Below the pieces are notes generated by a model. The model ran no database searches. It saw nothing but the letters and a program-made list of their open reading frames with translations, and was not told where the DNA came from. The translations under genes were made by a program, and so were the position numbers. DNA of 64,000 nucleotides from Styela clava (taxonomy: Eukaryota), in assembly GCF_964204865.1 (NCBI RefSeq), contig NC_135252.1, positions 17,298,001 to 17,362,000 on the forward strand, read 5' to 3'. Shown here one piece after another: positions 9,000-61,736 of this stretch (positions within the stretch are counted from its first letter, which is position 1; every line of letters starts with the position of its first letter).

Positions 9000-9311
9000 T
9001 AAAAAACTATGTATTGATTTATGTATTTGCTTGACGAAAAAATTCTGATGACTTGCCTAAACTATAGAATTAAGAGATTCGACTGTTTTTTTTTCGTGGA
9101 AATCACATTGGAAAATGCTGTGCCTTACAATACTTTTATTATATATTTATTTTCGAAGCACTTTACTTCGTACCGTTTATGTTACACTTGGGAGATGCTA
9201 AAATTTTAATAAAATCCTCCCTTTAACAAGACCATATTCTTTCGTGACAATAGCGATTCAAGTATCCTATAACTTCTTGAACATTTTAACATATTTTCAG
9301 TTGAATTAAAA

Positions 9312-10910
9312 ATGAAGGCATTTTTAGTCATCATTATATTTTCTATGCCAATACGCGGAGAATGGTTTTCTTCATTTTCCCACATGGAAAAGCTGTTAGG
9401 AAAAGAAGTTGACCTCCTGAAATCTCTGAGCGATTACATCACTTATGAAAATTCAAGACTGAATTATCTGGAAGAGGCATTGAAAATCATGAACACTACT
9501 TCATGTAGTTCTGCAAGTAATGTCAGAGCATGTATGGAAAATCCAATTAATCAGTACGCACTTATGAAGCGGTTAGCATACGTTTGGGAAGGAGTAAGAA
9601 GCGCTGTGAGCGATAGAAACGCATCTGAGAAATTTTTATGGACAATTGACCGCAACCGTCCTACGTTACCAACTTCTCTTGATGTCTTTGGATCGATTAG
9701 CGGATTAATTCGTATTCAGTTAATTTACGGTATCTCTGCACATGATATGGCTCTTGGGATAATTGGGAAATCTGTTTCTGGAATTTCACTTTCTGCGGGA
9801 GACTGTTATGACATCGGTGATGTTGCTTTGGCGAATAACCAGTCTCAAATTTGTGCGGAGTGGCAAGAAACTGCCTTGAATAAAATGAGAAATGGTGACA
9901 ACTCCATAAACGCCGAAAAAGTATTATATCTGTTAGCTAGATGCGTGTATGCACACGGTAACTTACCTATGGCGTATGAAACATTGCGAGAGATTGCCAG
10001 ATTTGCCCCGGATTTTATTGAAATGGCAGATTTTTATCGACATGTTATGGCGCAAGCAGAACAACAAAAGTTGGCGCCATTTCTTGGTAACTTTTACGGT
10101 GTCCTTGAAAAGTATGCCCATGAAAAACCTTTAAAAAATCACAGTCTTTTGGAACAACTTTGCCAAGGGAAGAAACCACTGACCAGAATTCAGGGACCGC
10201 CATTACGATGTTATTTGTGGGACGGAAACAGAAATCCACGCTTGTTGTTTCGTCCAGTTAAAGTAGAGATTGAAAGTGAAAAGCCGTTCGTGGCCCGCTT
10301 GTACAATTTCATAAGTGACGATGAGATCGAGATATTGAAAAAAGTATCTTCGCCTCTGATGTATCGAGCAAAAGTCAGTAACGGCGAAAGCGGGGGAAGA
10401 GAGAGCGACAGCAGAGTTACAAAAACAGTTTTTCTGGAGGAAAAACGTTTCGAAATTGTGGCAAAGATAAACAGAAGGGTAGCCGATGTTACAAAGTTTG
10501 ATTCTCGTTACGTCGAAGAGTTATCAATATCTAATTATGGCGTGGGAGGTCACTACGATTTACACATGGACGCATTCGGTATAAAAGCAAAGGAAGGAAA
10601 GAATTTTGAAAACAAGGGTGATCGAATAGCGACTTTACTGATGTATCTTTCCGACGTAGATCAAGGAGGGAATACTGTGTTTCCAAATCTGAGAATTGTC
10701 GCAAAACCAATAAAGGGAAGTGCAATCCTTTGGTTCAATTTGTTGACGAACGGAACAATCGATCGTGATAGTCTTCATTCTGGCTGCCCGGTGATGACAG
10801 GAGATAAATGGATTATAAATTTGTGGGTTCGGGAAAAGGCAATTTCAACATGTAGTTTGTGCGAATCACGGATTTGCCCGGAAAATACACACAAAATGCG
10901 CTTTTATTAA
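9312..10910 (+). CDS. Prolyl 4-hydroxylase alpha subunit-like (collagen P4H alpha family), single coding exon, 532 aa
   Basis: Signal peptide followed by EWFSS (family N-terminus E-x-F-T/S-S), NPINQYALMKRL, GLIRIQLIY, LCQG, LRCY, HYDLHMD (HxD iron ligands), GDRIATLLMYLSDVDQGGNTVFP, distal His in LHSGCPV and the 2-OG-binding Lys in GDKW. Splice acceptor TTTTCAG at 9294-9300 just upstream of the ATG. Paralogue not assignable. Confidence 0.93.
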   Translation: MKAFLVIIIFSMPIRGEWFSSFSHMEKLLGKEVDLLKSLSDYITYENSRLNYLEEALKIMNTTSCSSASNVRACMENPINQYALMKRLAYVWEGVRSAVSDRNASEKFLWTIDRNRPTLPTSLDVFGSISGLIRIQLIYGISAHDMALGIIGKSVSGISLSAGDCYDIGDVALANNQSQICAEWQETALNKMRNGDNSINAEKVLYLLARCVYAHGNLPMAYETLREIARFAPDFIEMADFYRHVMAQAEQQKLAPFLGNFYGVLEKYAHEKPLKNHSLLEQLCQGKKPLTRIQGPPLRCYLWDGNRNPRLLFRPVKVEIESEKPFVARLYNFISDDEIEILKKVSSPLMYRAKVSNGESGGRESDSRVTKTVFLEEKRFEIVAKINRRVADVTKFDSRYVEELSISNYGVGGHYDLHMDAFGIKAKEGKNFENKGDRIATLLMYLSDVDQGGNTVFPNLRIVAKPIKGSAILWFNLLTNGTIDRDSLHSGCPVMTGDKWIINLWVREKAISTCSLCESRICPENTHKMRFY

Positions 10911-25406: not shown

Positions 25407-25537
25407 AATTGCTGCGGTCTTTAGTTTGATAGTTCTAACATAAAAAAAAATATTAGTAGTCTAATTACTGAATTAATAATATTTTCGTAATAATAACCTA
25501 TCATTTCAGCAAGCAATTGCCATAAATCGTGAACAAT

Positions 25538-26095
25538 ATGTTTGCAATTAGACAAACAAGAATACTTTTTAGAACTGATCGATTGCTGAAATGCAATGGT
25601 ATCGTGCGCAGAGGTAAAGATGCAATGTCTACAGCAGCAGCTCAAGGGATCGAGAAAATCCCACCACCACCGCTAGAAGGAAGTAAAGAATTTCCACCAA
25701 AAATTGTAAAAATAGTCGATGAAATCTCAAATCTTACACTCATAGAAGTATCGGAATTAAACGAACTCTTAAAAATCAAATTGAATATCAGTGATATTCC
25801 AATGATGGTTGGTGGAGGTATTGCTCCCGGTGCCAGTGCTGCTCAAGCGGAAGATGAAGCTCCAGCTTCGAAAGAACAAACTGAGTTCACAGTCAAACTT
25901 ACTGCTTTCAAACCAGATTCAAAAGTTAAATTAATCAAAGCAATTAAACTTTTAATGCCAAACCTCAATCTTGTAAAAGCGAAAGGATTTGTGGAAAGTG
26001 TACCACAAATTGTACGACAAGAAATACCAAAAACAGAAGCTGAGGAATTATCAAAAACATTAACGGAGGCAGGTGGAACTGTTGTTATTGAATGA
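25538..26095 (+). CDS. MRPL12: Mitochondrial ribosomal protein L12 (bL12m), single coding exon, 185 aa
   Basis: Arg-rich transit peptide, PPKIVKIVDEISNLTLIEVSELNELLK, EQTEFTVKL...KVKLIKAIK...NLVKAKGFVESVP...EAGGTV. The first ATG is at 25538 (the ORF track starts at a GTG). Acceptor TTTCAG ends at 25509. Confidence 0.96.
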   Translation: MFAIRQTRILFRTDRLLKCNGIVRRGKDAMSTAAAQGIEKIPPPPLEGSKEFPPKIVKIVDEISNLTLIEVSELNELLKIKLNISDIPMMVGGGIAPGASAAQAEDEAPASKEQTEFTVKLTAFKPDSKVKLIKAIKLLMPNLNLVKAKGFVESVPQIVRQEIPKTEAEELSKTLTEAGGTVVIE

Positions 26096-28660: not shown

Positions 28661-39904
<11,244 letters not shown>

Positions 39905-40221: not shown

Positions 40222-41322
40222 GTCTATTTTGTTTTGTTTAGAACTTTTGTTTTTCTCGTACTTTTTCCTTTTAAAAAAATTTGGTGCAACTTAAATGCGT
40301 AACGAGAGAAAAAAAAACTGGCTCACTGGCTCGGACAGATTTTCTTGGACCAATGCCGGAGGTACTAATTATTTGACATGGAAACTTATAAAGATATTTT
40401 ACAGCCACCAACAAAAAATTGAACCAATTGGCTTGGTTTAAAAATTACATACATTTGAATCATTTGTCGTGTATTCCAATTTTAGAAAAAATGTCAAAAA
40501 TATTATTCCGCATGATGGTGCACAGGATTTTTGTTCCCATCTGTACTTTGGAGGATTATCACAAAATATTACGAGTTATGAATGTTGGTCGTACCGTCCA
40601 GTGGTTTTAATTAAGATGGATTATAGCCTAGTGAGATAAAAAAGTTTTTTCAGTTGTATTAAAAATAAACAATTGCGAGTTAAAAAATATTTATAAAACA
40701 TGTATTTTACTAGAACTAAATAATCAGTGTTTTTCACATTTATCATTAATTGAACGTAATGCAGTCATACTTCTTCTGTGTACTGCAAGATATAAAATAT
40801 GGTTAGAAAGTAATGCAGTTATTTTTGAAAATGTTAATCCAAGTGTAAATAGTGTCATAACAAGAATTAGAAAATCCCTTTTAGCAAGGAGAAATATAGA
40901 ACAACTTAGACATAATCCTAGTTTTATAAAAGAACTAGACATAATTTGTAAGATTCTATGACTAATTGTATAAATTTTTATTTTTCTGCTATAAATTAAA
41001 AACATATAAATTAATGTATATTTACTGATAAACATGGGAAACTTTATCTGGAATCAACAATGGAATAATATGAATTGCTGGATAATACTGGATGATGTTT
41101 ACGAATATATTTGTTTATTATATGTAACTATGTTCTATGATTATTATTTTTTCATCATTTATTTATTTTTACAAAACTGTTATGAATCCACAACGTGGAC
41201 CTTTAAAAAAAAAAAAAAAAAGAGATAAAGAAGTTAGTGTTTTACAAAACTCGAATAGAATAGAAGACTTCAGTTTATACATATGTACTTAATTATTTGA
41301 TTTGTTTGCAGGTCAAAAAATT

Positions 41323-44300
41323 ATGCAGGTGTCAGTTCACACCGTTTTCAAAAATGTAGTTCTTAATGCTTGGAAAGAAAGATGGAGTGAACAGAAATGG
41401 ACTTCAACAATGAGAAAATTACTACAGCCAGGGAATGTTGTTGACATGTTTCATATGGCTGATGTTCTCTTCTCTCAAGCATTCATCGGAAGCACACCTA
41501 ATACAGTTCTTCTTAGTTATTTTAATTACGGACTCAAATCGGGGACTTTGTCTTATGCAGCTATATTGACTGCCATTTCTAAACATGAGGATCTTCAAAA
41601 CACTGCTAGCATGGATTATACTTTGAATATACTCATGAAATATATAGAAAAACTAAACAAGGGACAAATTCTAGAAGACAGCATGGGCCTGTGCAAAGCT
41701 TTGCTTGTGATTTTGCAATGGCTTTTGAGAAATATTGAACAATATTTAAAAAGGGGTTCAGGAACTTCTGGAGTTGAAGCTGAGAATTTGCAAATTCAGA
41801 AAAACTGCTCAACTTTGCATTCCTTAACTACATTACCGAGAACTGCATCTCTTCTGACTATTGCAAGATTTGAGGAGAGCAGTGTTTGGAGCCATATTGA
41901 AACTGATCTCGCTGTAATTAAAAATGCTGCTGTTGGACATAACATGCAAAATGATGTTAATGTATCATGTAATAGTGTATCTCAACTTGCTCGCTGTAAT
42001 ACAAAAACATCTGCAGTATTCTGTTTGCCAAAAATACAAGGAAATGAATCTCATCATGGCATGTTGGTGAATATGTTTATCCTCCTAGAAGGTGAATGGA
42101 ATAAAATGACTGATCCTGATACTTTAATTCAACAATTGCTGTTGCTCTCTCAACTTTGTGATCTCAATGTTTCAGAACTGTGTCTGGACTTGATACGAGC
42201 CTGTATGATGGGATTCTTAGGCAGCATTGATGGAGATAGGAAACACAAATGGTCATCTGTACTTTTTCTTTCACTTCCCCAACATCTTAAAAGACTTAAA
42301 TCTGCTATTGTGTCAGGAAATGGTTCAGATTTTAAAAAGCTGTCTTTAGAAACAGATTTTGAAGATGCGACGGCAAGTGCTTTTTCAGAATTATTGCAAT
42401 ATGACAGTCTTCTAGATGTGTTAGACCAAATTACTGGAAATTGTGATTGCCTAAGTTGGCTCATTGATCGTTGCCTATCTTTCGGCATATTAAAAGAAGA
42501 TGCTGCAACAGAGCTGAAAACACGAAGACTCAGCATGGCCAAAGTTTCATCACAGCATCCAACACACGCAGTAGAACCGAGCAAATTGATAAAATACGAG
42601 GCAACTGCCCGTCAGTTACTTTCAGTCATAGACACTTCTGCTGATTATATTTCTAAACAAGAAAATTTGCTTGCTACATTGAGTCAAATGTCAAGTAACT
42701 TTAATATTATCTTGGCAAGTGGCTCAATCACACACAATGTACAAAAGTTTGCTAAAAAATTAATATTGTTTAATGATGTTGTGAAATCCAGCACTGCCGA
42801 AGGCGGTAAAAGTGCACAAATGAGATGTCTTCTTTTTGATTTTACGCATTTTCTAGTCTGCCAAATTGCTGAACAGTATGGAAAAAACGTTGTTTTAGGA
42901 TCTATGGCAGACATGGATTCTAGTAAATACTTTCTATACAACTGGATATCTGTTTACTGGCCTGATGATAGAGGTCAAATATTGAGAAATAGTAAAAGCG
43001 AACTTGATGTTGATGACTCTCGTATTAAAATGTATCTTGAATTGTTACAAAACAAAAGGGAACGAACTCAAGAACAATCGTGCAGTATAAAAAAATGGCA
43101 TGAGATGTGCACCAATTTGCCAAGAGCATTCATCGAATTGGTAAAGGCATGGCAGTACAAAGTTGTGAGCAAAGCAGATGTGTTGGGTGCCTGTGATGTC
43201 ATATGTAATATATTATCATTGTCTATCAGACTGACTTGTCTTGTTGAAGTAGCCAAATATGCTTCAACCGTTCCAAAACTATTCTGGAAGGAATTGAAAG
43301 AAGTCGTTGAAAAACTTTCAACGCATGGATTTATATCGCCACCCGGTCAAGAAATACATGCAGCAAAACGTACAAACATGTTTAAAGGTATATTGGAAGT
43401 GTTGATGCCAAATTCAAACCTACCTGGTGCACAGGATAACGAGCCTGTGAAATTTCCAGCTGATGTTCTTTCCGATTTAATAACAGAGTGCAGAGAGACA
43501 GGCTGGATAGGAAGAAATATGCTCTGTCGACTTGAAGCTGTTTTGAAGCGGTCCGGTGCCAAATGGTTTTGCCATCAACTTGTTTCACAGTTGTTGTCAC
43601 AAACTCGCAAAGATATTGTTGAACGAACAGCTACTGTTGTGGGTGGAATATTTTTGTTAGATGTTGAGAGTTTTGTCATTTGCTTGTTAAGACACGAAAT
43701 TCCGCACTATTTGACTGATGAAGCTGATCACATGATTCTCTCTGCTCCTGCAGGAAATGTTTTAGCACAGCTTGCTGTTAGCTGTCTTGCTATAGTTCTT
43801 CATAATATATCTTTACAACAAAAAGCTTGCCTTTCACAAAAAACAGCAAAAGAAAAGCTATCGCATCAACTTCTAATGTCTGGAAAAGAGTCATTGGCTT
43901 CTCATCAAGTACATTTCCAAGATGAAGTCGGACCCACTAAGTTGCGAAGACTTTTCAGTTCGACTGCAGAGCATGATTTGGCAGCAAGTGCGTTTTCATC
44001 TATACTTGGCCGCGAAAATTCTGCCACAGCTCAGTCTAAGCATTCTCATGTAAGAGAACCAGTATTGAGAGCACTTAGTTACGCATTAGATATTATGAAT
44101 ATGTCGCTTGCTGAACGACAACCCGGTCCTCATATTGACTTTGCAGTTTACTTCGTATATCTGGCATCACTGTGTGGCGAATTGGTTTCTCAAGCTGTTT
44201 TGCAGCTGATGCCATTAACCATGGTCACAGAACTGGCTGCTATGGCTAGTGATGGCACTTTCAAAATTTCCAAGTTTGATAAAGAATTTGATAGTTTTAA

Positions 44301-44388
44301 TTTTGTGTTATCTGTATCTGACCTTGGCCACACTTTCAGCAGAAAAGTGGCTGCAAAGGCAATTTGTCAAATGGTTCTTCCCGAATAA
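41323..44388 (+). CDS. MED24: Mediator complex subunit 24, single coding exon, 1021 aa
   Basis: N-terminus AWKERWS...ADVLFSQAFIGSTPNTVLLSY...SYAAILTAISK, LLFDFTHFLVCQIAEQYG, KWHEMC, C-terminal RKVAAKAI match the MED24/TRAP100 family. The first ATG is at 41323, after an acceptor at 41311. Confidence 0.93.
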   Translation: MQVSVHTVFKNVVLNAWKERWSEQKWTSTMRKLLQPGNVVDMFHMADVLFSQAFIGSTPNTVLLSYFNYGLKSGTLSYAAILTAISKHEDLQNTASMDYTLNILMKYIEKLNKGQILEDSMGLCKALLVILQWLLRNIEQYLKRGSGTSGVEAENLQIQKNCSTLHSLTTLPRTASLLTIARFEESSVWSHIETDLAVIKNAAVGHNMQNDVNVSCNSVSQLARCNTKTSAVFCLPKIQGNESHHGMLVNMFILLEGEWNKMTDPDTLIQQLLLLSQLCDLNVSELCLDLIRACMMGFLGSIDGDRKHKWSSVLFLSLPQHLKRLKSAIVSGNGSDFKKLSLETDFEDATASAFSELLQYDSLLDVLDQITGNCDCLSWLIDRCLSFGILKEDAATELKTRRLSMAKVSSQHPTHAVEPSKLIKYEATARQLLSVIDTSADYISKQENLLATLSQMSSNFNIILASGSITHNVQKFAKKLILFNDVVKSSTAEGGKSAQMRCLLFDFTHFLVCQIAEQYGKNVVLGSMADMDSSKYFLYNWISVYWPDDRGQILRNSKSELDVDDSRIKMYLELLQNKRERTQEQSCSIKKWHEMCTNLPRAFIELVKAWQYKVVSKADVLGACDVICNILSLSIRLTCLVEVAKYASTVPKLFWKELKEVVEKLSTHGFISPPGQEIHAAKRTNMFKGILEVLMPNSNLPGAQDNEPVKFPADVLSDLITECRETGWIGRNMLCRLEAVLKRSGAKWFCHQLVSQLLSQTRKDIVERTATVVGGIFLLDVESFVICLLRHEIPHYLTDEADHMILSAPAGNVLAQLAVSCLAIVLHNISLQQKACLSQKTAKEKLSHQLLMSGKESLASHQVHFQDEVGPTKLRRLFSSTAEHDLAASAFSSILGRENSATAQSKHSHVREPVLRALSYALDIMNMSLAERQPGPHIDFAVYFVYLASLCGELVSQAVLQLMPLTMVTELAAMASDGTFKISKFDKEFDSFNFVLSVSDLGHTFSRKVAAKAICQMVLPE

Positions 44389-51692: not shown

Positions 51693-52558
51693 CAGAGGTG
51701 GCCAACCTGCTTTCGACTAAAATCTTTAAAATAGCTCGCGATCGACTGATCGGTAATAAGGTCATACACAAAAACGAATGAGTACTGAATATGCAGATGA
51801 CTAACTACACATATACAAAAATTCCACCGCTGCCAATAAGTCGGCTCAATCTTAATAAAATCGCCACAAAAATTTGTATTTTTTATGCTCTATTTAATTT
51901 GTTAAATTGATTATGTAATTGTACCCGGAGTAAATCTTTGATCATTTATTTTAGCTTTATTCAAACCATACAATTCAGATCTAAAGCCTGTCTAATTTGA
52001 AGTCGTTGAAAATCCTTATAAAACCCTGCCAAGTATCCATGTAAGATCTGAACAGCCAAACATAAATATTTTCAAACCATAAAAGCTTCATGACTGATCA
52101 AACTTCAGTAGAGCCATCTAATTTACAATTTCCTCCAAGTCCGATTCTTTGCTCGCATGAAATGAGAAAAATTGGGCATTTTGATGCCACTGCGAACAAA
52201 ATTGATCACACTGCTCTTGGAGTGAGACAATAACTTCCACATACTGCAGGAGTTATTTTAGGATCGTTTGTCGGTCAAGACACACGATGTTCGGCACGTT
52301 CATTTCCTAACCTTGGCAGCGGCAAAACTTGCATCTGTACATAATAATATGCCCCATGAAACTTGCCTAGACTCAAATAGTGTATGTATATATCGTACTT
52401 TGCGCATGTACAGTACTGTATTCTTTCTGCTTTAAAACACACAACAGACGCTGCATGGAACTGGTTCATAGGAATTTTTTGGGATGTTAATAAATTCACT
52501 CAACATCAGACGCGATCGACTACTCGAGACGTGGCGATCGACGTTTTGGCTACCCCTG
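51693..52558 (+). mobile_element. Non-autonomous hAT MITE (~870 bp), copy 1
   Basis: CAGAGGTGGCCAACC...TTTGGCTACCCCTG with GCGATCGAC subterminal repeats. Homologous along its length to the reverse complement of 60868-61736. TSD degenerate (ATATACGC / ATACACAA, 5/8). Confidence 0.8.
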
Positions 52559-52957: not shown

Positions 52958-55900
52958 ATGAAGGTTGCTAAAAAACTTCATTATATTAAACGCTATATGA
53001 AAATATGGATAGCTCTTGTTATTTTCATATACTGTATACTGCAGCGTCAGTATATAATATCTGTTTTGAATAACTTAACTTTTCACGAAGATTTTGACTT
53101 GGAATACTTTGATGTAGACGACATCGATAACACTGAAACGATAGAATTGAGCCATTTACCTAACATGGCTAGAATAAAACGGAAAACAATTCTGGATTAT
53201 AAACCAGGCCACCGCCCTTGTCGTCATTATCCTAGGAACTTGAAGGGAAATTTAACATCTAACATCAAGATCAACGTAACTCAAACTCTTCCGTGGGACG
53301 TTATAGAGTCTTCCATTTCCAGGGTTTACGAGGGAAAATTTTCTCCTAGAAATTGTAAATCACGCTACAATGTTGCAATCATAATTCCGTTGCGGAATCG
53401 TGAATCTCAATTAAAAGTATTATTAGCTCATATGCATCCTATATGGCAACGACAAAATCTTGATTACACTGTTTATACCATTACACAAGCAGGGGAGGGA
53501 TTATTTAATAGAGCAAAACTTATCAACGTGGGAGTTTTTGAAGCTACGAAAGGTAAGAATCACTGTATATTTTGATTTTCTAATGATACCAACTTGTGTG
53601 AAATGGGTGGTTTTGGATTAGTACATTATTTTTTAGAAAAGTCATGTATATTGTATGAATTCTTGTTGTTTGTCTGGCCATACAAAAAACACTGCCTTAT
53701 CTTAGGTTTTATTAGAAAATGTAGCCACCATCGTCGCTATCTATAAAAAGTATATTGAATGCTTGTCGATTTCATTTTCAAATAAATTTGTCGCCTTATC
53801 GCCGGTTGTATATGAACGATATTATCTGCCAGGTCCAACTTAAAATATTCAGCCAGCTTCAACAAATAGGTTTCAAAGTTCAATTCCAAACCTGCAATCA
53901 AAATTCAACTTCTTTAGGGAAACAAATATACGATTTATATACCCTTTTACATCCAGTGAAAAAAAATTGATATATATTATTCTTCAATTTTACTTTCCAG
54001 AGCAATCCTACGACTGTTTTGTGTTTCATGATGTTGACTTGTTGTTGGAAGATGACCGGTGTTTGTATTGGTGTGACGAAGAAAATCCTCGTCATATATC
54101 GATGTATATGGACAAATTTGCTTATGAACCACTCTCTTATTCGACAACATGTCGTCCAGCATCATGTAAGTGCTATGGAATTTTATATTGACTGTTTACA
54201 CAATTTGTTAAAAATTACTGCCATTCACGCTCATACAGGGTGAGGCAAACAAACCTCCCATATTCAACTTTTAGAAAAAATACAAGAATAGCCTCTATTA
54301 AATTTTTATTGCACACTCAACAAGGCATTTGATTTCTATTTTGAGTAAACTTCTTTTACAAAACAACCTATTAGAGATGGTCCCTCCATCTGCAATTCAT
54401 AAGCTTATCCTAAAGTTTTCCATCAACCTCTTAGTGATTTCTCGCGGATTTCATTTTCTATTTTGAACAAAAGTGGAAAGTCAGGCGACCGTGCTGGCCA
54501 TTCCATATTACCATGCAAAGAATTCAAATGCGTTGAAACGATTCCCCGCAAAACATTCATTGATTTTTTGCCGTGTGGGCTGTTGCCCCATCTTGTTAAA
54601 ACCATAACTTTGCATGATTTCTAAGATATTTAAGTTTTGGCATGAAAACGTTTTGCAGCATAACGAACTGAAGTAAGCGAAACCGCCTGCTCGAAAAATT
54701 AACGACTCCAAATTGCAAAACTCGCAACTACGCACCACAGCGTACTCGCTTAATATGAAGAGGTCTTCCTGTAGCCTTACAAGGTTTTCTCTGCGTTCTG
54801 CCAAGAAGCGAAAATTTTGCTTATTGACATACCAGATTCGCTGTTAGTTTGTATAAAATTCGTAATAAATCACTTGTTTTTAATAAATCATAAATCACGA
54901 AAATAAAATGGCAGTTCATTAACAACATAAATTTACCTAAATTAGATAAATAACCGCAACAGCTTTGCCATAGTAAGAATTTAAAATGTGGTAACTTTTT
55001 CGCCTCAATATCATTCTTCATAAAATGGCACATATGTAGCAATACTCATAGACCGTTGTAAATAATAATATCAATAGGTTTCAATAGTCTACTGAACTAT
55101 TTCGATAGTCGAATTTGAACAAATGAACTTCACTGATCACCGCCAACAAGTTACATTTCCTAATTAACAAAAATACCTAGAAGTATTAATATTTACCAAC
55201 ACTGTTTTAGTTTTTTTAGAAAATATTATATATTACGGCGGCGTGTCAAGTATGACACCAAAGCAGTTCAACAATGTCAATGGTTTCTCAAACTTTTATT
55301 GGGGATGGGGAGGGGAAGATGATGACATGTATTTCAGATTGAAAACTGCAGGTTTGTGATTTCTTTCATGGATTGAAAATATATTACCGATGTTGAAATA
55401 ATAAATGAGGAATTTAAAAAATGACTTTAGGTTTATGATATCGCATAAAAGACTTCATAAGTATCTTGTTGAAAAATAACTGGTAAATGCTTTCATACAA
55501 AATTTGACTGAATTTGTTTAAATCTTGATTGCTTTATACATTGGGTCTAAAGTTTGCTGAATACCTTAACAGCTCTAACCATCAGAGGCAGCTTGACTAG
55601 AGCACTTTCGGTAGTACGGTTGATCATGCCATGAAATTTGACACAAACAATTTGCAAAATGACGATAAAAAGAAAAGGGCTGAAAGTATCTAAACTTGTG
55701 CCAGCCAAATATGATTACTCAGAATTATGATTTTGGCGCACTGCTGTGCCTGCGATCTAGATCCTCCGCAGTTTAGTCAAATTATTAGATGTATATATGT
55801 TAACAGCTGATTTTGATTCTATATTTTTCAACAACGAAATATGTTATTGCGCTGAGTTATAAACATTGAAGGCTATTCATTTTGATAACAAAATTGTTTT

Positions 55901-58900
55901 GATGGCAAAATAAAGACAGGTTATGACTGCTTTTTTTCTTAGTTTCTCCTCTTGAGTGATTGAGTAGCTAAACGATTTTATGGTGCATATAAAACCACAA
56001 GTTTCCTATTCCCTGTGTATCTTCCCGTTAGATCAGGGATTCCCAACCGGTGGTACGCGTACCACTAGTGGTACGCGGGAGCTTTTCAGGTGGTACGCGT
56101 GCAGCTTTCTGTTGTATTCGATATATATGACATCACAATCATGTTATTTATTGACGCTTTTGCAAGAGTTCTTGTTAGAATAGCCAACTCGTCGCCTGTG
56201 ATTGCTTTGCCAAAGTTTTGGCTGAGTATTTTAAAATGTCGAAGCGAAAGTATAGTGAAAATTATATTGAGTATGGCTTCATTGCTATTGAACATCGAGG
56301 AGATATCTTACCTCAGTGCGTGATCTGTATGAAAACCCTTTCAAATGCAGCTTTGAAACCAAGTTTGCTTAAGCGACACCTTGAAACCAATCATACAGAT
56401 AAGATGAACCGAGATAAGAGTTATTTTGAGCGACTTGGGGAGAACGTGAAGAGACAGCGCATGGATCACACAGGCCAGTTTTACCAAAAGAATGCGGGGA
56501 TTGTAAAGGCATCCTACGAAGTATCTCTTCTGGTGGCCCAACACAAAAAAGCTCATGTCATTGCAGAGTCTCTTATTTTGCCTGCAGCTAAGATATTAGT
56601 CAGAAATTTGATTGGAGAAGAGTCAGCGGCAAAGTTGGATAGTGTTTCGCTTTCTAACAATACCGTGAAACGACGCATCGAGGAAATGTCAGTTGATATT
56701 ACTGACCAGGTGATTGCAGGAGTAAGAAATTCGAAGTTTGGATTTGCCTTACAACTTGATGAATCGACAGATGTCACAAACTGCTGCCAACTGCTTGCCT
56801 ACGTCCGCTTTATTCAGAACGATACTGTAAAAACGGAATTAATGTTGAATCATGAGCTGTCTACTACATCAAAAGGAAAAGATATTTTCAACTCTTTGGA
56901 TAATTTTTTCAAGGAAAATGAATTAGATTGGGGAAATCTTGTCGGATGTACCACGGATGGGGCTCCCTCCATGCTCGGCAGAAAATCTGGATTTCAAGCC
57001 CTTGTCAAAGCAGTGTCACCTCGCGTCGTAAGTGTTCACTGTTTCATACACAGATTTGCTCTTTGCACAAAAGTTCTTCCTGCAAATTTGTTAATGTGCT
57101 TGAACAGGGTCATCAAAATCGTAAATTTTGTTAAAACATCAGCTTTAAATACTCGATTGTTTAAGGTTCTTTGCGAAGATCTCGGCTCTGATCACACGTG
57201 TCTCCTTTATCACACAGAAGTACGTTGGCTCTCTCGAGGAAACACAACTAAACGTCTTTTTGAAATGAGGGATGAATTACTTTTATTTTTCCAACAGAAA
57301 GACCATGACTTTCAAAACGACCTGCAGGATGAGGATTTTATTGCGAAGTTGGCTTATTTGTCAGATATATTTGAAACATTCAATCACTTAAATTTGTCAT
57401 TTCAAGGGAAAAACTGCACAGTCGCAGACTTTGTTTCAAAACTGGGAGCCTTTATCAGAAAGCTGAATTTATGGAGAAAAAATGTGGAAAACAAGCGCTA
57501 TGGTATGTTTAAATTTCTGTCAGCCCTTGAAATAGAAATCAGTGATGACTTGTCCAGAGAAATTACCCAGCACCTCTCGCTGCTAACTGCTGAATTGCAG
57601 CATTACTTTCCAGATACCTCATGCTGCCCATACGTCACAGATCCTTTCTCAGTGGACCCAGCCGACCTACTTGTTGGTACAGGGGAACAAGAGGAACTGA
57701 TAGACATACAGGAGGATCTGGAAGCAAAAAAACAATGCAAAGAATATTCTGCAATAAACTTTTGGCTTAGTATGGCTTCTTCATACCCAACGCTAGCTTC
57801 TCACGCTATTCCACAACTACTGATTTTTCCTTCTACTTGGGAATGTGAGCAGGGATTTTCTATTCTTATGAACATCAAATCAAAAAATCGAAACCGACTA
57901 AGTGCCCCCGGACATGACTTCAGATGTGCTATTAGCAACGTTATGCCGCGCATCGATCAACTGGCGCAAGACAAACAAAAACAAAAATCCCATTAAATTT
58001 AGCCGTGCACTTTTCGTTGTTTATTCTGATTGGTAATTTTGGTACATTCGTTAAATTTACATCCTGATTTATCATGTTATCATAATAAATTGGTTTTGTA
58101 AAATTTGTATCAAATTAGCTGTTTCGAAAATAGTGGTACATGTTGACAAATCGTGGTGCCCAAGTGGTACGAGAACGTAAAAAGGTTGGGAACCCCTGCG
58201 TTAGATGAAGACGTCCAGTAATATACGGGGAATGTTGAGAATATTATTTTAGTCGTAAACTTGTATTTTGGATCTCAAGAGACACTGCATAAAATATTTG
58301 CGTTTGACAAATTTTCTAGTCAGATTTGCATGGATATGTATTTCAAAAACGCCCAAAATTGTCTCGCATTAGTTCTGGCAGTTGATCAAATTTCTTTTGT
58401 TTTCAGGATACGACGTGTCCAATCCATACGGTCAACATTGTTCATTTCGTATGATAGCGCATGAACACGAGTCTTCGAACGCTGAGAATGAAGCAAGATA
58501 TACTCTGTTATATCATGCCGCTTCCAGAATGAGAAAAGAAGGCTCAAACACTTTGAGGTCAGTATCCTGGATACGTGCAATTTGACAGATAGACCCGAAT
58601 CCATCCAAATATTTGCAATCGTATTTCGCCGAGTTAATTAAAAACCATATTCAGAGCATGATCTGTTGGTGCGCTATGATATCGCTTGGCGTCGTTTTAA
58701 AAAGTATATAACAATAACAGATAATATCAGGAAGTTACATAAAACCGAAACCAAATGCTAATAATAAAAAACAAAATATTCTGCGCGCGTTTGCTCAAAG
58801 CGATAATATCCGCGGAAGTCAGGTCAGATGGAGGTAATTACTGTAACGAACGCCTCCGACTATTGTATGAAGGTAAACAGATTATTCATCATTTGTAGGC

Positions 58901-59659
58901 ATACTTGTCAGTAAGTATAAGTCCACCACCGCGCGGTCAGTCGAAAGCCGTCAAATTTGACAGCCACGAACACAAATGCTATACGCTTTCGTTTGTAAGG
59001 ATTTTGAGAGATAGAAAACCCATCCAATTTAACTACAGCACGTCATATGAATTAGAACAAAAAACAATTGTAGAGGTTGAGTATTAGAATCAACAAATAA
59101 TGGGCGCGACTGAACGTGTGGTGTACAATGTATTTCTTTTACTCTGCGTTATATGAAGCGTCTCGACTTTCGATCCACATTTATAAGTATAGGTTTTTTG
59201 GAAACTTAACCAAAACTTTTCCGAAGACAAAATAGCGGAAAAATTATTTCATTTATGCCACTATTTACGACACTACCTAAAACTGCCAAGTAATTGCAAA
59301 TAAAACAACAAAAACGATTCATTGGTTACAACCATGCTTGATATTCTGTCCAAGTAAAAGAGTGTATGAGGGACTGCTGAAATTCCAATTGTTGCGTCAC
59401 TGGTATTACGGGAATTGGCCATTGTTACAGAAATGCACAAGCAAATCGTTGCTCGGAGAAATATATGGTGTACCTTGCTTGTTTAGAATACGTTTATCTA
59501 TTTTTTTTCAGATACAAATTATTGTCTGTGAAGAGATTTCCACTGTACGTTAACATCACAGTTGATATAGGAAGACCATCCATGAAAATGTTAAAGTTTA
59601 TGTCGAGAAAAATGTCTTGGACGGAAATATGCATTGCACGAGTTCCATGGCGAATGTAA
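52958..59659 (+). CDS. Beta-1,4-galactosyltransferase family (GT7) protein, 5 exons, ~399 aa
   Basis: Exons 52958-53552, 54001-54165, 55211-55351, 58407-58557, 59512-59659 (1200 nt, phases compatible). Type II signal anchor, [25 protein letters not shown] (DxD), [24 protein letters not shown] (metal-binding Met/His), [11 protein letters not shown]. Confidence 0.92.
54236..54810 (-). mobile_element. Degraded Tc1/mariner-type transposon relic in B4GALT intron 2
   Basis: TA|CAGGGTG terminal motif at ~54234. Minus-strand fragments [10 protein letters not shown] / WPARSPDF resemble the FQQDGA-P-H ... WPPRSPDL transposase motifs, now frameshifted. Confidence 0.6.
56034..58198 (+). mobile_element. 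Autonomous Buster-type hAT DNA transposon, 2165 bp, structurally intact, in B4GALT intron 3
   Basis: TIRs CAGGGATTCCCAACC / reverse complement CAGGGGTTCCCAACC (14/15). Perfect TSD CGTTAGAT (56026-56033 / 58199-58206) with central TA. GTGGTAC subterminal repeats at both ends. One long ORF, AATAAA at ~58083. Confidence 0.97.
56236..57996 (+). CDS. hAT (Buster/ZBED5-ZBED8/SCAND3-like) transposase, 586 aa
   Basis: BED zinc finger CVIC...LKRHLETNH. Catalytic D in LDESTD, D in TDGA, CxxH in HCFIH, RWLSRG, catalytic E in [11 protein letters not shown]-terminal KSKNRNRL. No stops or frameshifts. First ATG at 56236. Confidence 0.96.
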   Translation: MSKRKYSENYIEYGFIAIEHRGDILPQCVICMKTLSNAALKPSLLKRHLETNHTDKMNRDKSYFERLGENVKRQRMDHTGQFYQKNAGIVKASYEVSLLVAQHKKAHVIAESLILPAAKILVRNLIGEESAAKLDSVSLSNNTVKRRIEEMSVDITDQVIAGVRNSKFGFALQLDESTDVTNCCQLLAYVRFIQNDTVKTELMLNHELSTTSKGKDIFNSLDNFFKENELDWGNLVGCTTDGAPSMLGRKSGFQALVKAVSPRVVSVHCFIHRFALCTKVLPANLLMCLNRVIKIVNFVKTSALNTRLFKVLCEDLGSDHTCLLYHTEVRWLSRGNTTKRLFEMRDELLLFFQQKDHDFQNDLQDEDFIAKLAYLSDIFETFNHLNLSFQGKNCTVADFVSKLGAFIRKLNLWRKNVENKRYGMFKFLSALEIEISDDLSREITQHLSLLTAELQHYFPDTSCCPYVTDPFSVDPADLLVGTGEQEELIDIQEDLEAKKQCKEYSAINFWLSMASSYPTLASHAIPQLLIFPSTWECEQGFSILMNIKSKNRNRLSAPGHDFRCAISNVMPRIDQLAQDKQKQKSH

Positions 59660-60867: not shown

Positions 60868-61736
60868 CAGGGGTGCCCTGCGATGGCCACGTCTCGATCA
60901 GTCCATCGCGTCTGATGTTGATTGAATTTTAGTGAAATACCCCCCAAAATTGCCTCAAATCAGTTGTGTGTTTTACAACAGGGAGAATACAGTACTTTAC
61001 ATGTCCAAAATACAATATACACATACGATTTTGGGTCTGACCAAGCCCGATAAAGCATATTATTACGTAACAAATGCAAGTTTTTCCGCTGCCAAGGTTA
61101 AAAAATGAAATGCTGAATATCGCATGTTTAGACTAGAGTTTAGCGAGACTGATCTTACAAAAACTTTTGCAGTATGCGAAACTTACTGTCTCACTCCAAG
61201 AGTAGTGTGATAAATTTTATTCGCAATGGTAGCAGTGGCATCAAAATGCCTAATTTGTTCTAATTCTAAGCAAGCGAGGAATCGCATTTGAAGAAAATTG
61301 TAAATTAGATACTGAAGTTTGAGCAGTCTTGTAACATTTATGGTTTGAGGATATTTATTTTTTGCTGTATAGATAATACATGAATACTTGTAGAGGTTTT
61401 TTAAAAAATTTCAACACTTACGACTAAAAATCAGGCACATCTGAATTGTATGATTTAAATAAATCTTGAAAAAAAAGATGAAACATTTACTCCGGGTACA
61501 ATTAAATGATCGAATCAACAACTTGGATGGAACATAAAAAACACAAATTTTGTGTCGATTTCAATAATAATGTACGCACAAAGCCTTCTTATTGGCAGCG
61601 GTAGAATTTTTTGTATGCGTGTGTGCAGTTATCTGCATATTCAGTTTTTGTGTAGGACCTTATTACCGATCAGTCGATCGCGATCTATTTCGAAGATTTT
61701 AGTCGATCGCGGGCAAAAGCAGGTTGGCCACCCCTG
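60868..61736 (-). mobile_element. Non-autonomous hAT MITE (~870 bp), copy 2, inverted relative to 51693-52558
   Basis: CAGGGGTGCC...GGTTGGCCACCCCTG with TSD ATATCTAT / ATATATAT (7/8). Shares GCGATCGACTGATCGGTAATAAGGTC, CCGCTGCCAATAAG and CTCTTGGAGTGAGACA blocks with copy 1. Confidence 0.85.

What the first reader, a model, noticed from the sequence alone, without database searches (positions are those of the whole stretch)
56026..58206. Apparently intact, potentially active Buster transposon
Seen: compact 2165-bp element with a perfect TSD, 14/15 TIRs, an uninterrupted 586-aa ORF with BED finger, DDE triad, CxxH and RW motifs, and a poly(A) signal. The left end has overlapping perfect palindromes GTGGTACGCGTACCAC (56050-56065) and CGCGTACCACTAGTGGTACGCG (56056-56077) built from the GTGGTAC repeat. 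Established: the related TcBuster is active in heterologous cells and used for gene transfer, and Buster/SPIN elements are known for horizontal transfer. It is co-oriented with the host gene, so its poly(A) site could truncate B4GALT transcripts before the metal-binding exon.
Basis: partly seen in the sequence, partly recalled or inferred. Interest (0 to 1): 0.7.

Follow-up and report, generated by a model that had tools for sequence, protein, structure and literature searches.

The report
Recently jumping sea-squirt Buster transposon
An intact cut-and-paste transposon of the well-known Buster type sits in an intron of a sea-squirt sugar-transferase-like gene; the site is filled in this genome and empty in another sample, and near-identical copies sit at other sites in other samples, so it has likely jumped recently, but it is an ordinary new member of a known family and no harm to the host gene is shown.

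Summary
Observation confirmed: a 2165-bp hAT element (56034-58198) with an exact 8-bp TSD (CGTTAGAT), 14/15 TIRs and an unbroken 586-aa transposase (BED, D175/D241/E538, CxxH, RW; Hermes-like fold). Named Styela clava proteins match it at 98-100%. It is single-copy in G000 but neither fixed nor domesticated. One public run shows the exact empty site. Three runs carry near-identical copies at three other sites, two of which I found empty in G000. All 4 target sites are NNNTANNN, the Buster consensus. It is a low-copy, insertion-polymorphic, likely recently active Buster family; own-enzyme activity is inferred, not assayed. The left-end palindromes are real but shared with two sister families and a MITE in the genome. 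Host-gene truncation is unsupported: exon 3 joins exon 4 normally in 2 of 3 RNA-like runs, no chimeric joint was seen, and carriers were not tested. Extra: two in-frame GT-AG cryptic introns occur in the annotated models; the first removes CxxH and RW; the second appears weakly in one run. Cross-phylum transfer is likely in the wider clade (hagfish vs crabs 89-91% aa) but not shown for this family. New member of a known kind; interest 0.3.

The parts
56026..56033 (+). left target-site duplication CGTTAGAT (NNNTANNN)
   Evidence: single copy at the empty site in run X2 (joint 56025->58199, skips 2173, both=8)
56034..56048 (+). left terminal inverted repeat, 15 bp
   Evidence: the exact 20-base end occurs once in G000
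56050..56099 (+). left subterminal GTGGTACGCG repeats (three forward, one inverted) forming two overlapping perfect palindromes; inferred transposase (BED) binding sites
   Evidence: same layout in sister families B and C and a 0.9-kb MITE
56236..57996 (+). transposase ORF, 586 aa
   Evidence: PF05699 22.0 bits vs cutoff 21.4, zf-BED below cutoff; model pLDDT 88.7, best fold match Hermes E 2.7e-10
56317..56394 (+). BED zinc finger C28, C31, H48, H53
56758..56760 (+). catalytic D175 (inferred from conservation and alignment)
   Evidence: 75 of 78 D; profile aligns it to a Hermes aspartate, weak score
56956..56958 (+). catalytic D241 (inferred)
   Evidence: 75 of 78 D
57040..57051 (+). CxxH motif C269-H272
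   Evidence: 76 and 78 of 78
57223..57228 (+). RW motif R330-W331
   Evidence: 78 of 78 each
57847..57849 (+). catalytic E538 (inferred)
   Evidence: 77 of 78 E
57028..57297 (+). cryptic in-frame GT-AG intron 1 (270 nt, aa 265-354, removes CxxH and RW)
   Evidence: missing from named models P0003, P0004, P0022, P0122, P0124; not seen as a joint in 3 of 3 RNA-like runs
57503..57613 (+). cryptic in-frame GT-AG intron 2 (111 nt, 37 aa)
   Evidence: missing from P0003, P0121, P0008, P0022; one depth-2 contig in run X6; no such joint in the five other-type runs laid (X22, X1, X3, X14, X2)
58084..58089 (+). AATAAA hexamer, possible poly(A) signal; use not shown
   Evidence: contigs of X5 and X6 run through it into flanking DNA
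58133..58173 (+). two degenerate right subterminal repeats (GTGGTACATG, GTGGTACGAG)
   Evidence: same as in the other samples' copies
58184..58198 (-). right terminal inverted repeat, 15 bp
   Evidence: exact end occurs once in G000
58199..58206 (+). right target-site duplication CGTTAGAT
52997..53552 (+). host B4GALT-like gene, coding exon 1
   Evidence: PF13733 E 1.4e-30
54001..54165 (+). host exon 2 (HDVD motif)
   Evidence: exon 2-3 joint as loose end in X5 and X9
55211..55351 (+). host exon 3 (GWGGEDDD motif), upstream of the insertion
   Evidence: PF02709 E 5.5e-18
58407..58557 (+). host exon 4 (RMIAH, aligns to B4GALT1 RMIRH), downstream of the insertion
   Evidence: joint skipping 3055 nt GT..AG in X5 and X9; weak PDB match E 1.4, all 8 hits B4GALT1
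59512..59659 (+). host coding exon 5
   Evidence: loose ends in X5, X6, X9 continue into it

Best explanation
This is an intact Buster-type hAT transposon of Styela clava whose near-identical copies occupy different NNNTANNN sites in different samples, likely moved there recently by its own cut-and-paste transposase. Shown: the anatomy; the empty allele at this site; three further filled sites, two of them empty in G000; copies differing from the window at only 3-4 internal positions. Inferred from Hermes and other hAT elements: the BED finger binds the GTGGTACGCG subterminal repeats, the DDE core with CxxH and RW cuts at the TIRs, and integration into a TA-centred 8-mer makes the TSD. The window copy is one segregating intronic insertion, likely removed with intron 3 of the B4GALT-like gene (883 to 3056 nt). 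Part of the transposase RNA is likely lost to two cryptic in-frame introns, which would give catalytically dead isoforms; these sites most likely arose by chance in this lineage.
For: Exact TSD, TIRs and open ORF. Catalytic motifs conserved; the window departs from only 5 well-conserved columns, all conservative changes; Hermes fold. Empty site in X2. Other filled sites: X5 flanks are contiguous in G000 at C16:16741401-16741408 around one CCCTAAAT; X6 right flank lies in G000 at C2:24771747-24771754 behind GTTTAGAC with no element; X2 has a third right flank starting TTCTAGGT. In X1 and X2 the element is one contig ending exactly at 58198, depth 64.2 vs 9.3-18.2 and 38 vs 6-12.7 for flanks (the tool warns that depth is no copy number). 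Named S. clava models from several accession ranges encode the same protein. 5 of 5 ORF differences are synonymous (expected share 0.22-0.28, P 0.0005-0.002), unlike sister family B (15 synonymous, 36 non-synonymous).
Against: Only 1 copy in G000 and no deletion derivatives with its exact ends. No excision footprint, de novo insertion or assay. The TTCTAGGT flank was not found in G000 with 0 or 2 mismatches. None of the 8 named S. clava models is full-length, and the 586-aa sequence is not in the collection. Named copies carry four single-residue changes and frameshifts, so constraint is not seen on every copy; the five synonymous sites are majority variants of contigs and two are private to the window copy. 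Sister family B, with 5 of 9 intact copies and similar ends, could supply enzyme in trans.
Confidence: 0.85

Rival explanations
1. The element moved recently, but by the enzyme of sister family B acting in trans; its own transposase is weak or dead, for example through cryptic splicing.
For: Family B has 9 full-length copies at 99.2-99.8% identity, 5 of 9 with an open 586-aa ORF, and the same GTGGTACGCG left-end repeats. All 8 named models of this family's protein lack part of the ORF. Right-end repeats of this element are degenerate.
Against: TIRs differ from family B at 2-3 of 15 positions and the enzymes are 68% identical. The ORF is unbroken in the window and in the contigs of X1, X2 and X5; differences are synonymous. 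Unspliced RNA-like contigs cover both introns.
Confidence: 0.09
2. The element is a recently silenced or extinct family; the polymorphism is old standing variation in a very heterozygous species.
For: Single copy in G000; 1.72% heterozygosity is reported for the species (PMC7540406); the filled left junction also appears in X1, so this insertion is likely inherited rather than new.
Against: Copies at different sites differ at 3-4 of about 2150 bases, whereas the empty-site contig differs from the window at 9 of about 500 flank bases, so insertions are likely much younger than the haplotypes.
Confidence: 0.1
3. The insertion is a functional mutation: its poly(A) signal or splice acceptors cut B4GALT-like transcripts before the exon with the metal-binding motif, or fuse exon 3 to the transposase (a claim about effect, compatible with the best explanation).
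For: Co-oriented; AATAAA at 58084; exon 4 holds RMIAH. Six AGs in the first 370 bases of the element would allow a reading of over 60 further residues after exon 3, five of them in frame with the transposase.
Against: Exon 3-4 joint in 2 of 3 RNA-like runs and no exon 3-to-element joint in any; intron 3 already holds two AATAAA upstream of the element, and the hexamer occurs 1.6 times per kb; RNA-like contigs of other copies read through the hexamer; named models start at the element's own ATG. Caveat: those runs are not shown to carry this insertion.
Confidence: 0.1
4. A domesticated, fixed ZBED5-like host gene.
For: Single copy in G000; annotated as ZBED5-like; synonymous-only differences.
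Against: Intact TIRs and TSD, an empty allele, and copies at other loci.
Confidence: 0.01

Closest known systems
Buster family of hAT transposons (TcBuster, AeBuster, SPIN; AnBT, HvBT, LlBT, CrBT, LcBT of PMC12637253)
   Same: One ORF with BED and DDE domains, 14-16-bp TIRs, 8-bp TSD, near-identical young copies (PMC12637253 passages); TSD consensus nnnTAnnn (PMC3517528); short subterminal repeats with conserved 5' ends (PMC4298943).
   Different: Smaller (2165 bp, 586 aa vs 2.5-3.0 kb, 597-677 aa); one copy in this assembly vs 7-22; activity not assayed; two family-specific cryptic in-frame introns. Identity to TcBuster or SPIN was not measured (no reference sequence available in a call).
Marine clade of 586-aa transposases in hagfish (Myxine glutinosa), decapods (Portunus, Chionoecetes, Palaemon), Ciona and Clavelina, annotated as ZBED5-like
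   Same: Same length and architecture; 76% aa to the hagfish P0148, 72-76% to Ciona, Clavelina and Portunus records.
   Different: Separate branch; nearest relatives (87-89%) are unnamed ENA records P0006, P0016, P0125. Near-identity across phyla (89-91% hagfish vs crabs in 4 of 9 pairs) is in the sister branch, not this one.
Hermes transposase (Ac-family hAT; PDB 4D1Q, 8EDG)
   Same: Best fold match, E 2.7e-10, TM about 0.5; DDE and CxxH arrangement; the CxxH histidine is part of the Hermes active site (PMC7780238 passage).
   Different: 12-14% identity; Ac family, not Buster.
[quoted passage not shown]
   Same: In-frame cryptic intron removes functional parts, keeps the dimerisation domain; interference by such a product was proposed there as speculation.
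   Different: Here in the native host and in an otherwise intronless ORF; DNA-binding and dimerisation parts are both kept and CxxH/RW are lost.

Membership tests
hAT superfamily | 8-bp target-site duplication | tested here: met
   CGTTAGAT on both sides; one copy at the empty site
hAT superfamily | short TIRs (5-27 bp), element under 4 kb (PMC3517528) | tested here: met
   15 bp, 14/15; 2165 bp
hAT superfamily | DDE transposase with BED finger, CxxH, RW and C-terminal hAT dimerisation region | tested here: met
   PF05699 above cutoff; motifs conserved in 75-78 of 78; Hermes fold
Buster family | target consensus nnnTAnnn (PMC3517528) | tested here: met
   4 of 4 sites of this family; 12 of 12 full-length elements examined in G000
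Buster family | transposase groups with reference Busters (TcBuster, SPIN) rather than Ac or Tip | tested here: inconclusive
   No reference Buster, Ac or Tip sequence was in my trees. Indirect only: named hits are ZBED5-, ZBED8-, FAM200- and SCAND3-like (their Buster origin is recalled), and Hermes is 12-14% identical
Buster family | conserved termini with short subterminal repeats (PMC4298943) | tested here: met
   GTGGTACGCG repeats at both ends, shared with families B, C, D and a MITE; not aligned to published Buster ends
Active autonomous transposon | near-identical copies at polymorphic sites | tested here: met
Active autonomous transposon | own enzyme excises and integrates own ends | not testable with these tools
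   needs a cell assay
Domesticated Buster gene (ZBED5 type) | fixed single locus that has lost TIRs (PMC3517528) | tested here: not met
   TIRs and TSD intact; empty allele; other loci

The most novel reading that the evidence does not exclude
A Buster family that is transposing now in an invasive ascidian after horizontal entry from another marine animal, and that throttles itself by splicing: two in-frame introns found only in this family yield a transposase that keeps its DNA-binding and dimerisation parts but lacks CxxH and RW, a built-in dominant-negative repressor in the manner of the P element (recalled), possibly switched between germline and soma.
Probability: 0.12. Interest if true: 0.6.

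Novelty: new member of a known kind. Interest (0 to 1): 0.3.

Why it matters
Modest. It gives a concrete, PCR-typable set of polymorphic insertions (window site, C16, C2) of a young DNA transposon family in an invasive tunicate, and one more compact native Buster candidate for gene transfer, perhaps useful in ascidians. It also shows that several 'ZBED5-like' gene models in this species are mobile transposons, not host genes. If the in-frame splicing proved regulated and the short isoform repressive, it would be a new control mode for Buster elements; my evidence for that is thin.

Tried and rejected
Single-sequence PDB search: no hit; only the profile and the fold reached Hermes. Sequencing runs: no RNA holder listed on record; X5, X6, X9 are RNA by guess, supported by exon joints and no cover of 55388-55982. 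Organism B (X14, 43% of words) also covers host flanks, so it is likely host DNA in a mixed sample and not evidence of transfer. Hi-C reads X22: about 4.7-fold in the element vs about 1-fold in flanks by my hand count, but about 5-fold is the genome-wide ceiling and cover is uneven; inconclusive. Intron 1 joint: not seen in 3 of 3 RNA-like runs; contigs drop rare forms, so no conclusion. The 18-base gap in the X1/X2 contigs is treated as a likely assembly artefact of the palindrome; its place was not shown. The 75-bp hits are not derivatives of this element: their TIRs and right ends follow family D (20 of 39 other hits fetched, 14 with matched TSD). TTCTAGGT flank not found in G000. The careful tree did not finish; only quick trees were used, and the one-clade test group was named after seeing the first tree. 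My first exon borders were wrong (fusion lengths there void) and were corrected. Earlier findings: none. Two papers were not held.

Full report
OBSERVATION. The element spans 56034-58198 (2165 bp) between two copies of CGTTAGAT, with 15-bp TIRs matching at 14 positions. It holds one ATG ORF of 586 aa at 56236-57996. Pfam gives the hAT dimerisation region above its cutoff and a BED finger just below. In an alignment of 78 sequences (the window plus 77 near-full-length proteins picked from the 120 listed hits) C28, C31, H48, H53, D175, D241, C269, H272, R330, W331 and E538 are kept in 75-78 rows, and the window departs from only five columns conserved at 85% or more, all conservatively. The AlphaFold model (pLDDT 88.7) matches Hermes best, E 2.7e-10. 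Both palindromes are perfect. Named Styela clava proteins match at 98-100%, which gives the host species.

COPY NUMBER IN G000. The full element, its right 202 bases and both exact ends each occur once in 377 Mb. Other hits are sister families at 66-75% nucleotide identity. Family B has 9 copies of 2312-2315 bp at 99.2-99.8% identity, each with its own TSD, 5 of 9 with an open 586-aa ORF; family C has 2 copies at 98% with broken ORFs. All 12 full-length elements examined have TA-centred TSDs. A MITE of about 0.9 kb shares the first 75 bases at about 90% (33 exact left ends), but its TIRs and right end follow a fourth, broken family. The palindromic left end is thus a clade trait.

POLYMORPHISM. 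Of 22 runs listed, 20 hold part of the element; I laid 8 runs in two calls. Run X2 has a contig joining 56025 to 58199 with the 8-mer once: the exact empty site. X1, of the same sample label, has the filled left junction (55733-56062), so that sample likely carries both alleles. In X1 and X2 the element forms one contig ending at 58198 with depth 64.2 against 9.3-18.2, and 38 against 6-12.7, for flank contigs; this suggests several copies, though the tool warns that depth is no copy number. Loose ends give three other sites. The left and right flanks in X5 are contiguous in G000 on C16 around a single CCCTAAAT. The right flank in X6 lies on C2 behind GTTTAGAC with no element before it. A third flank in X2, starting TTCTAGGT, was not found in G000. 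So polymorphism is reciprocal and 4 of 4 targets are NNNTANNN, the Buster consensus (PMC3517528 passages). Copies differ from the window at 3-4 internal positions; all 5 ORF differences are synonymous (P 0.0005-0.002), so the window protein equals the majority protein. Against over-reading: named models show four residue changes and frameshifts in single copies, and family B copies drift neutrally (15 synonymous, 36 non-synonymous). Named models fall in several accession ranges, which fits several loci in another annotation (inference).

MECHANISM. Shown: anatomy, target preference, polymorphism, youth. Inferred from hAT biology: BED binding to subterminal repeats, DDE cleavage with the CxxH histidine in the active site (PMC7780238 passage), hairpins on flanking DNA (PMC5499845 passage), 8-bp staggered integration. 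Buster ends need 100-250 bp beyond the TIR (PMC12637253 passages); this element has 202 bp on each side of the ORF. That its own enzyme did the moving is inferred (0.85); family B in trans is the main rival (0.09).

CRYPTIC SPLICING. None of the 8 named S. clava models is full length. Seven lack one or both of two in-frame stretches with canonical borders, 57028-57297 (GTAAGT...TTTTCCAACAG; removes CxxH and RW) and 57503-57613 (GTATGT...TTTCCAG); the eighth stops at residue 252. The second joint appears in X6 as one contig of depth 2 with a 29-base side, beside an unspliced contig of depth 4.5, and in none of the five other-type runs laid; the first was seen in none of 3 RNA-like runs, and X5 has the whole ORF unspliced. 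None of the four splice sites is present in the family B and C copies shown, and the 89% relatives have Ile where the first donor needs Val, which favours chance origin. I could not see the evidence behind the annotated models. In-frame cryptic splicing is described for Ac, with interference proposed only as speculation (PMC2921059 abstract and section 19).

HOST GENE. Five coding exons give a 386-aa B4GALT-like protein; exon 4 carries RMIAH, aligned weakly to B4GALT1 RMIRH (E 1.4; its metal-binding role is recalled). The element enlarges intron 3 from 883 to about 3056 nt. X5 and X9 join exon 3 to exon 4; no run joins exon 3 to the element. These runs are not shown to carry this insertion, so truncation is untested in carriers, but nothing supports it, and AATAAA is common here.

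HORIZONTAL TRANSFER. The window protein is 76% identical to a hagfish protein but 68% and 71% to families B and C of its own genome. The three families fall in separate supported branches, C with Ciona, B with Clavelina (quick trees; one clade rejected, p-AU 1e-6, group named after the first tree). Hagfish and crab or shrimp proteins are 89-91% identical in 4 of 9 pairs and 86-89% in 3 more. This points to transfer in the clade, a known Buster trait (PMC12637253 introduction; PMC4298943 passages). The nearest relatives of this family (87-89%) are unnamed, so no donor can be given.

LITERATURE SEEN. PMC12637253: part 1 of 6, passages, list of supplements only (mmc4.docx too large; may bear on sequence comparison). 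PMC3517528, PMC4298943, PMC7540406, PMC11184336, PMC5499845, PMC7780238: passages. PMC2921059: abstract and one section. Two papers were not held. Searches for Buster with ascidian, tunicate or hagfish and for Styela clava with transposable elements listed no description of this family, but the survey of 308 intact Busters cited in PMC12637253 was not available and may include it.

VERDICT. A real, intact, insertion-polymorphic Buster family, likely recently active; new member of a known kind; interest 0.3.

Noticed in passing
L013-L021 (G000 C1, C3, C4, C8, C10, C16, C17, C19): Sister Buster family B: 9 full-length 2.3-kb copies at 99.2-99.8% identity, each with its own NNNTANNN TSD, 5 of 9 with an open 586-aa ORF and without the cryptic splice sites; a stronger candidate for an activity assay than the window element.
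   Followed up: partly
L002:1162-3528 and L003:1193-3557: Sister family C, two copies at 98% with broken ORFs; 84-86% aa to Ciona-cluster proteins, suggesting transfer between ascidian orders.
   Followed up: partly
L031-L050; 33 exact left ends in G000: A MITE family of about 0.9 kb (median 90% pairwise identity) with TIR CAGTGGTTCTCAACC and TA-centred TSDs, related to a broken family D that is tandemly repeated on C16 13.85-14.5 Mb with one TSD.
   Followed up: partly
window 31403-31694, 32199-33402, 35344-37490: Three more non-coding elements with CAG-starting TIRs and exact 8-bp TSDs (ATCTAACA, CTCTATCC, CTCACAAA); no ORF of 150 aa or more.
   Followed up: no
window about 51693-52558 and 60868-61736: Two related hAT-like MITEs of about 870 bp, 74% identical, in opposite orientation on either side of the B4GALT-like gene.
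   Followed up: no
proteins P0148 vs P0142-P0147: Hagfish and decapod transposases up to 91% identical, a likely cross-phylum transfer in the sister branch.
   Followed up: partly
window 9273-10910, 25526-26095, 41293-44388: Long single-frame host ORFs resembling a prolyl 4-hydroxylase alpha subunit, mitochondrial ribosomal protein L12 and a Mediator subunit (names recalled from the translations, not searched).
   Followed up: no
window 55300-55334: Runs X2, X6 and X9 hold contigs matching only 35 bases of exon 3 with other flanks: at least one B4GALT paralogue elsewhere, which could buffer any effect of the insertion.
   Followed up: no
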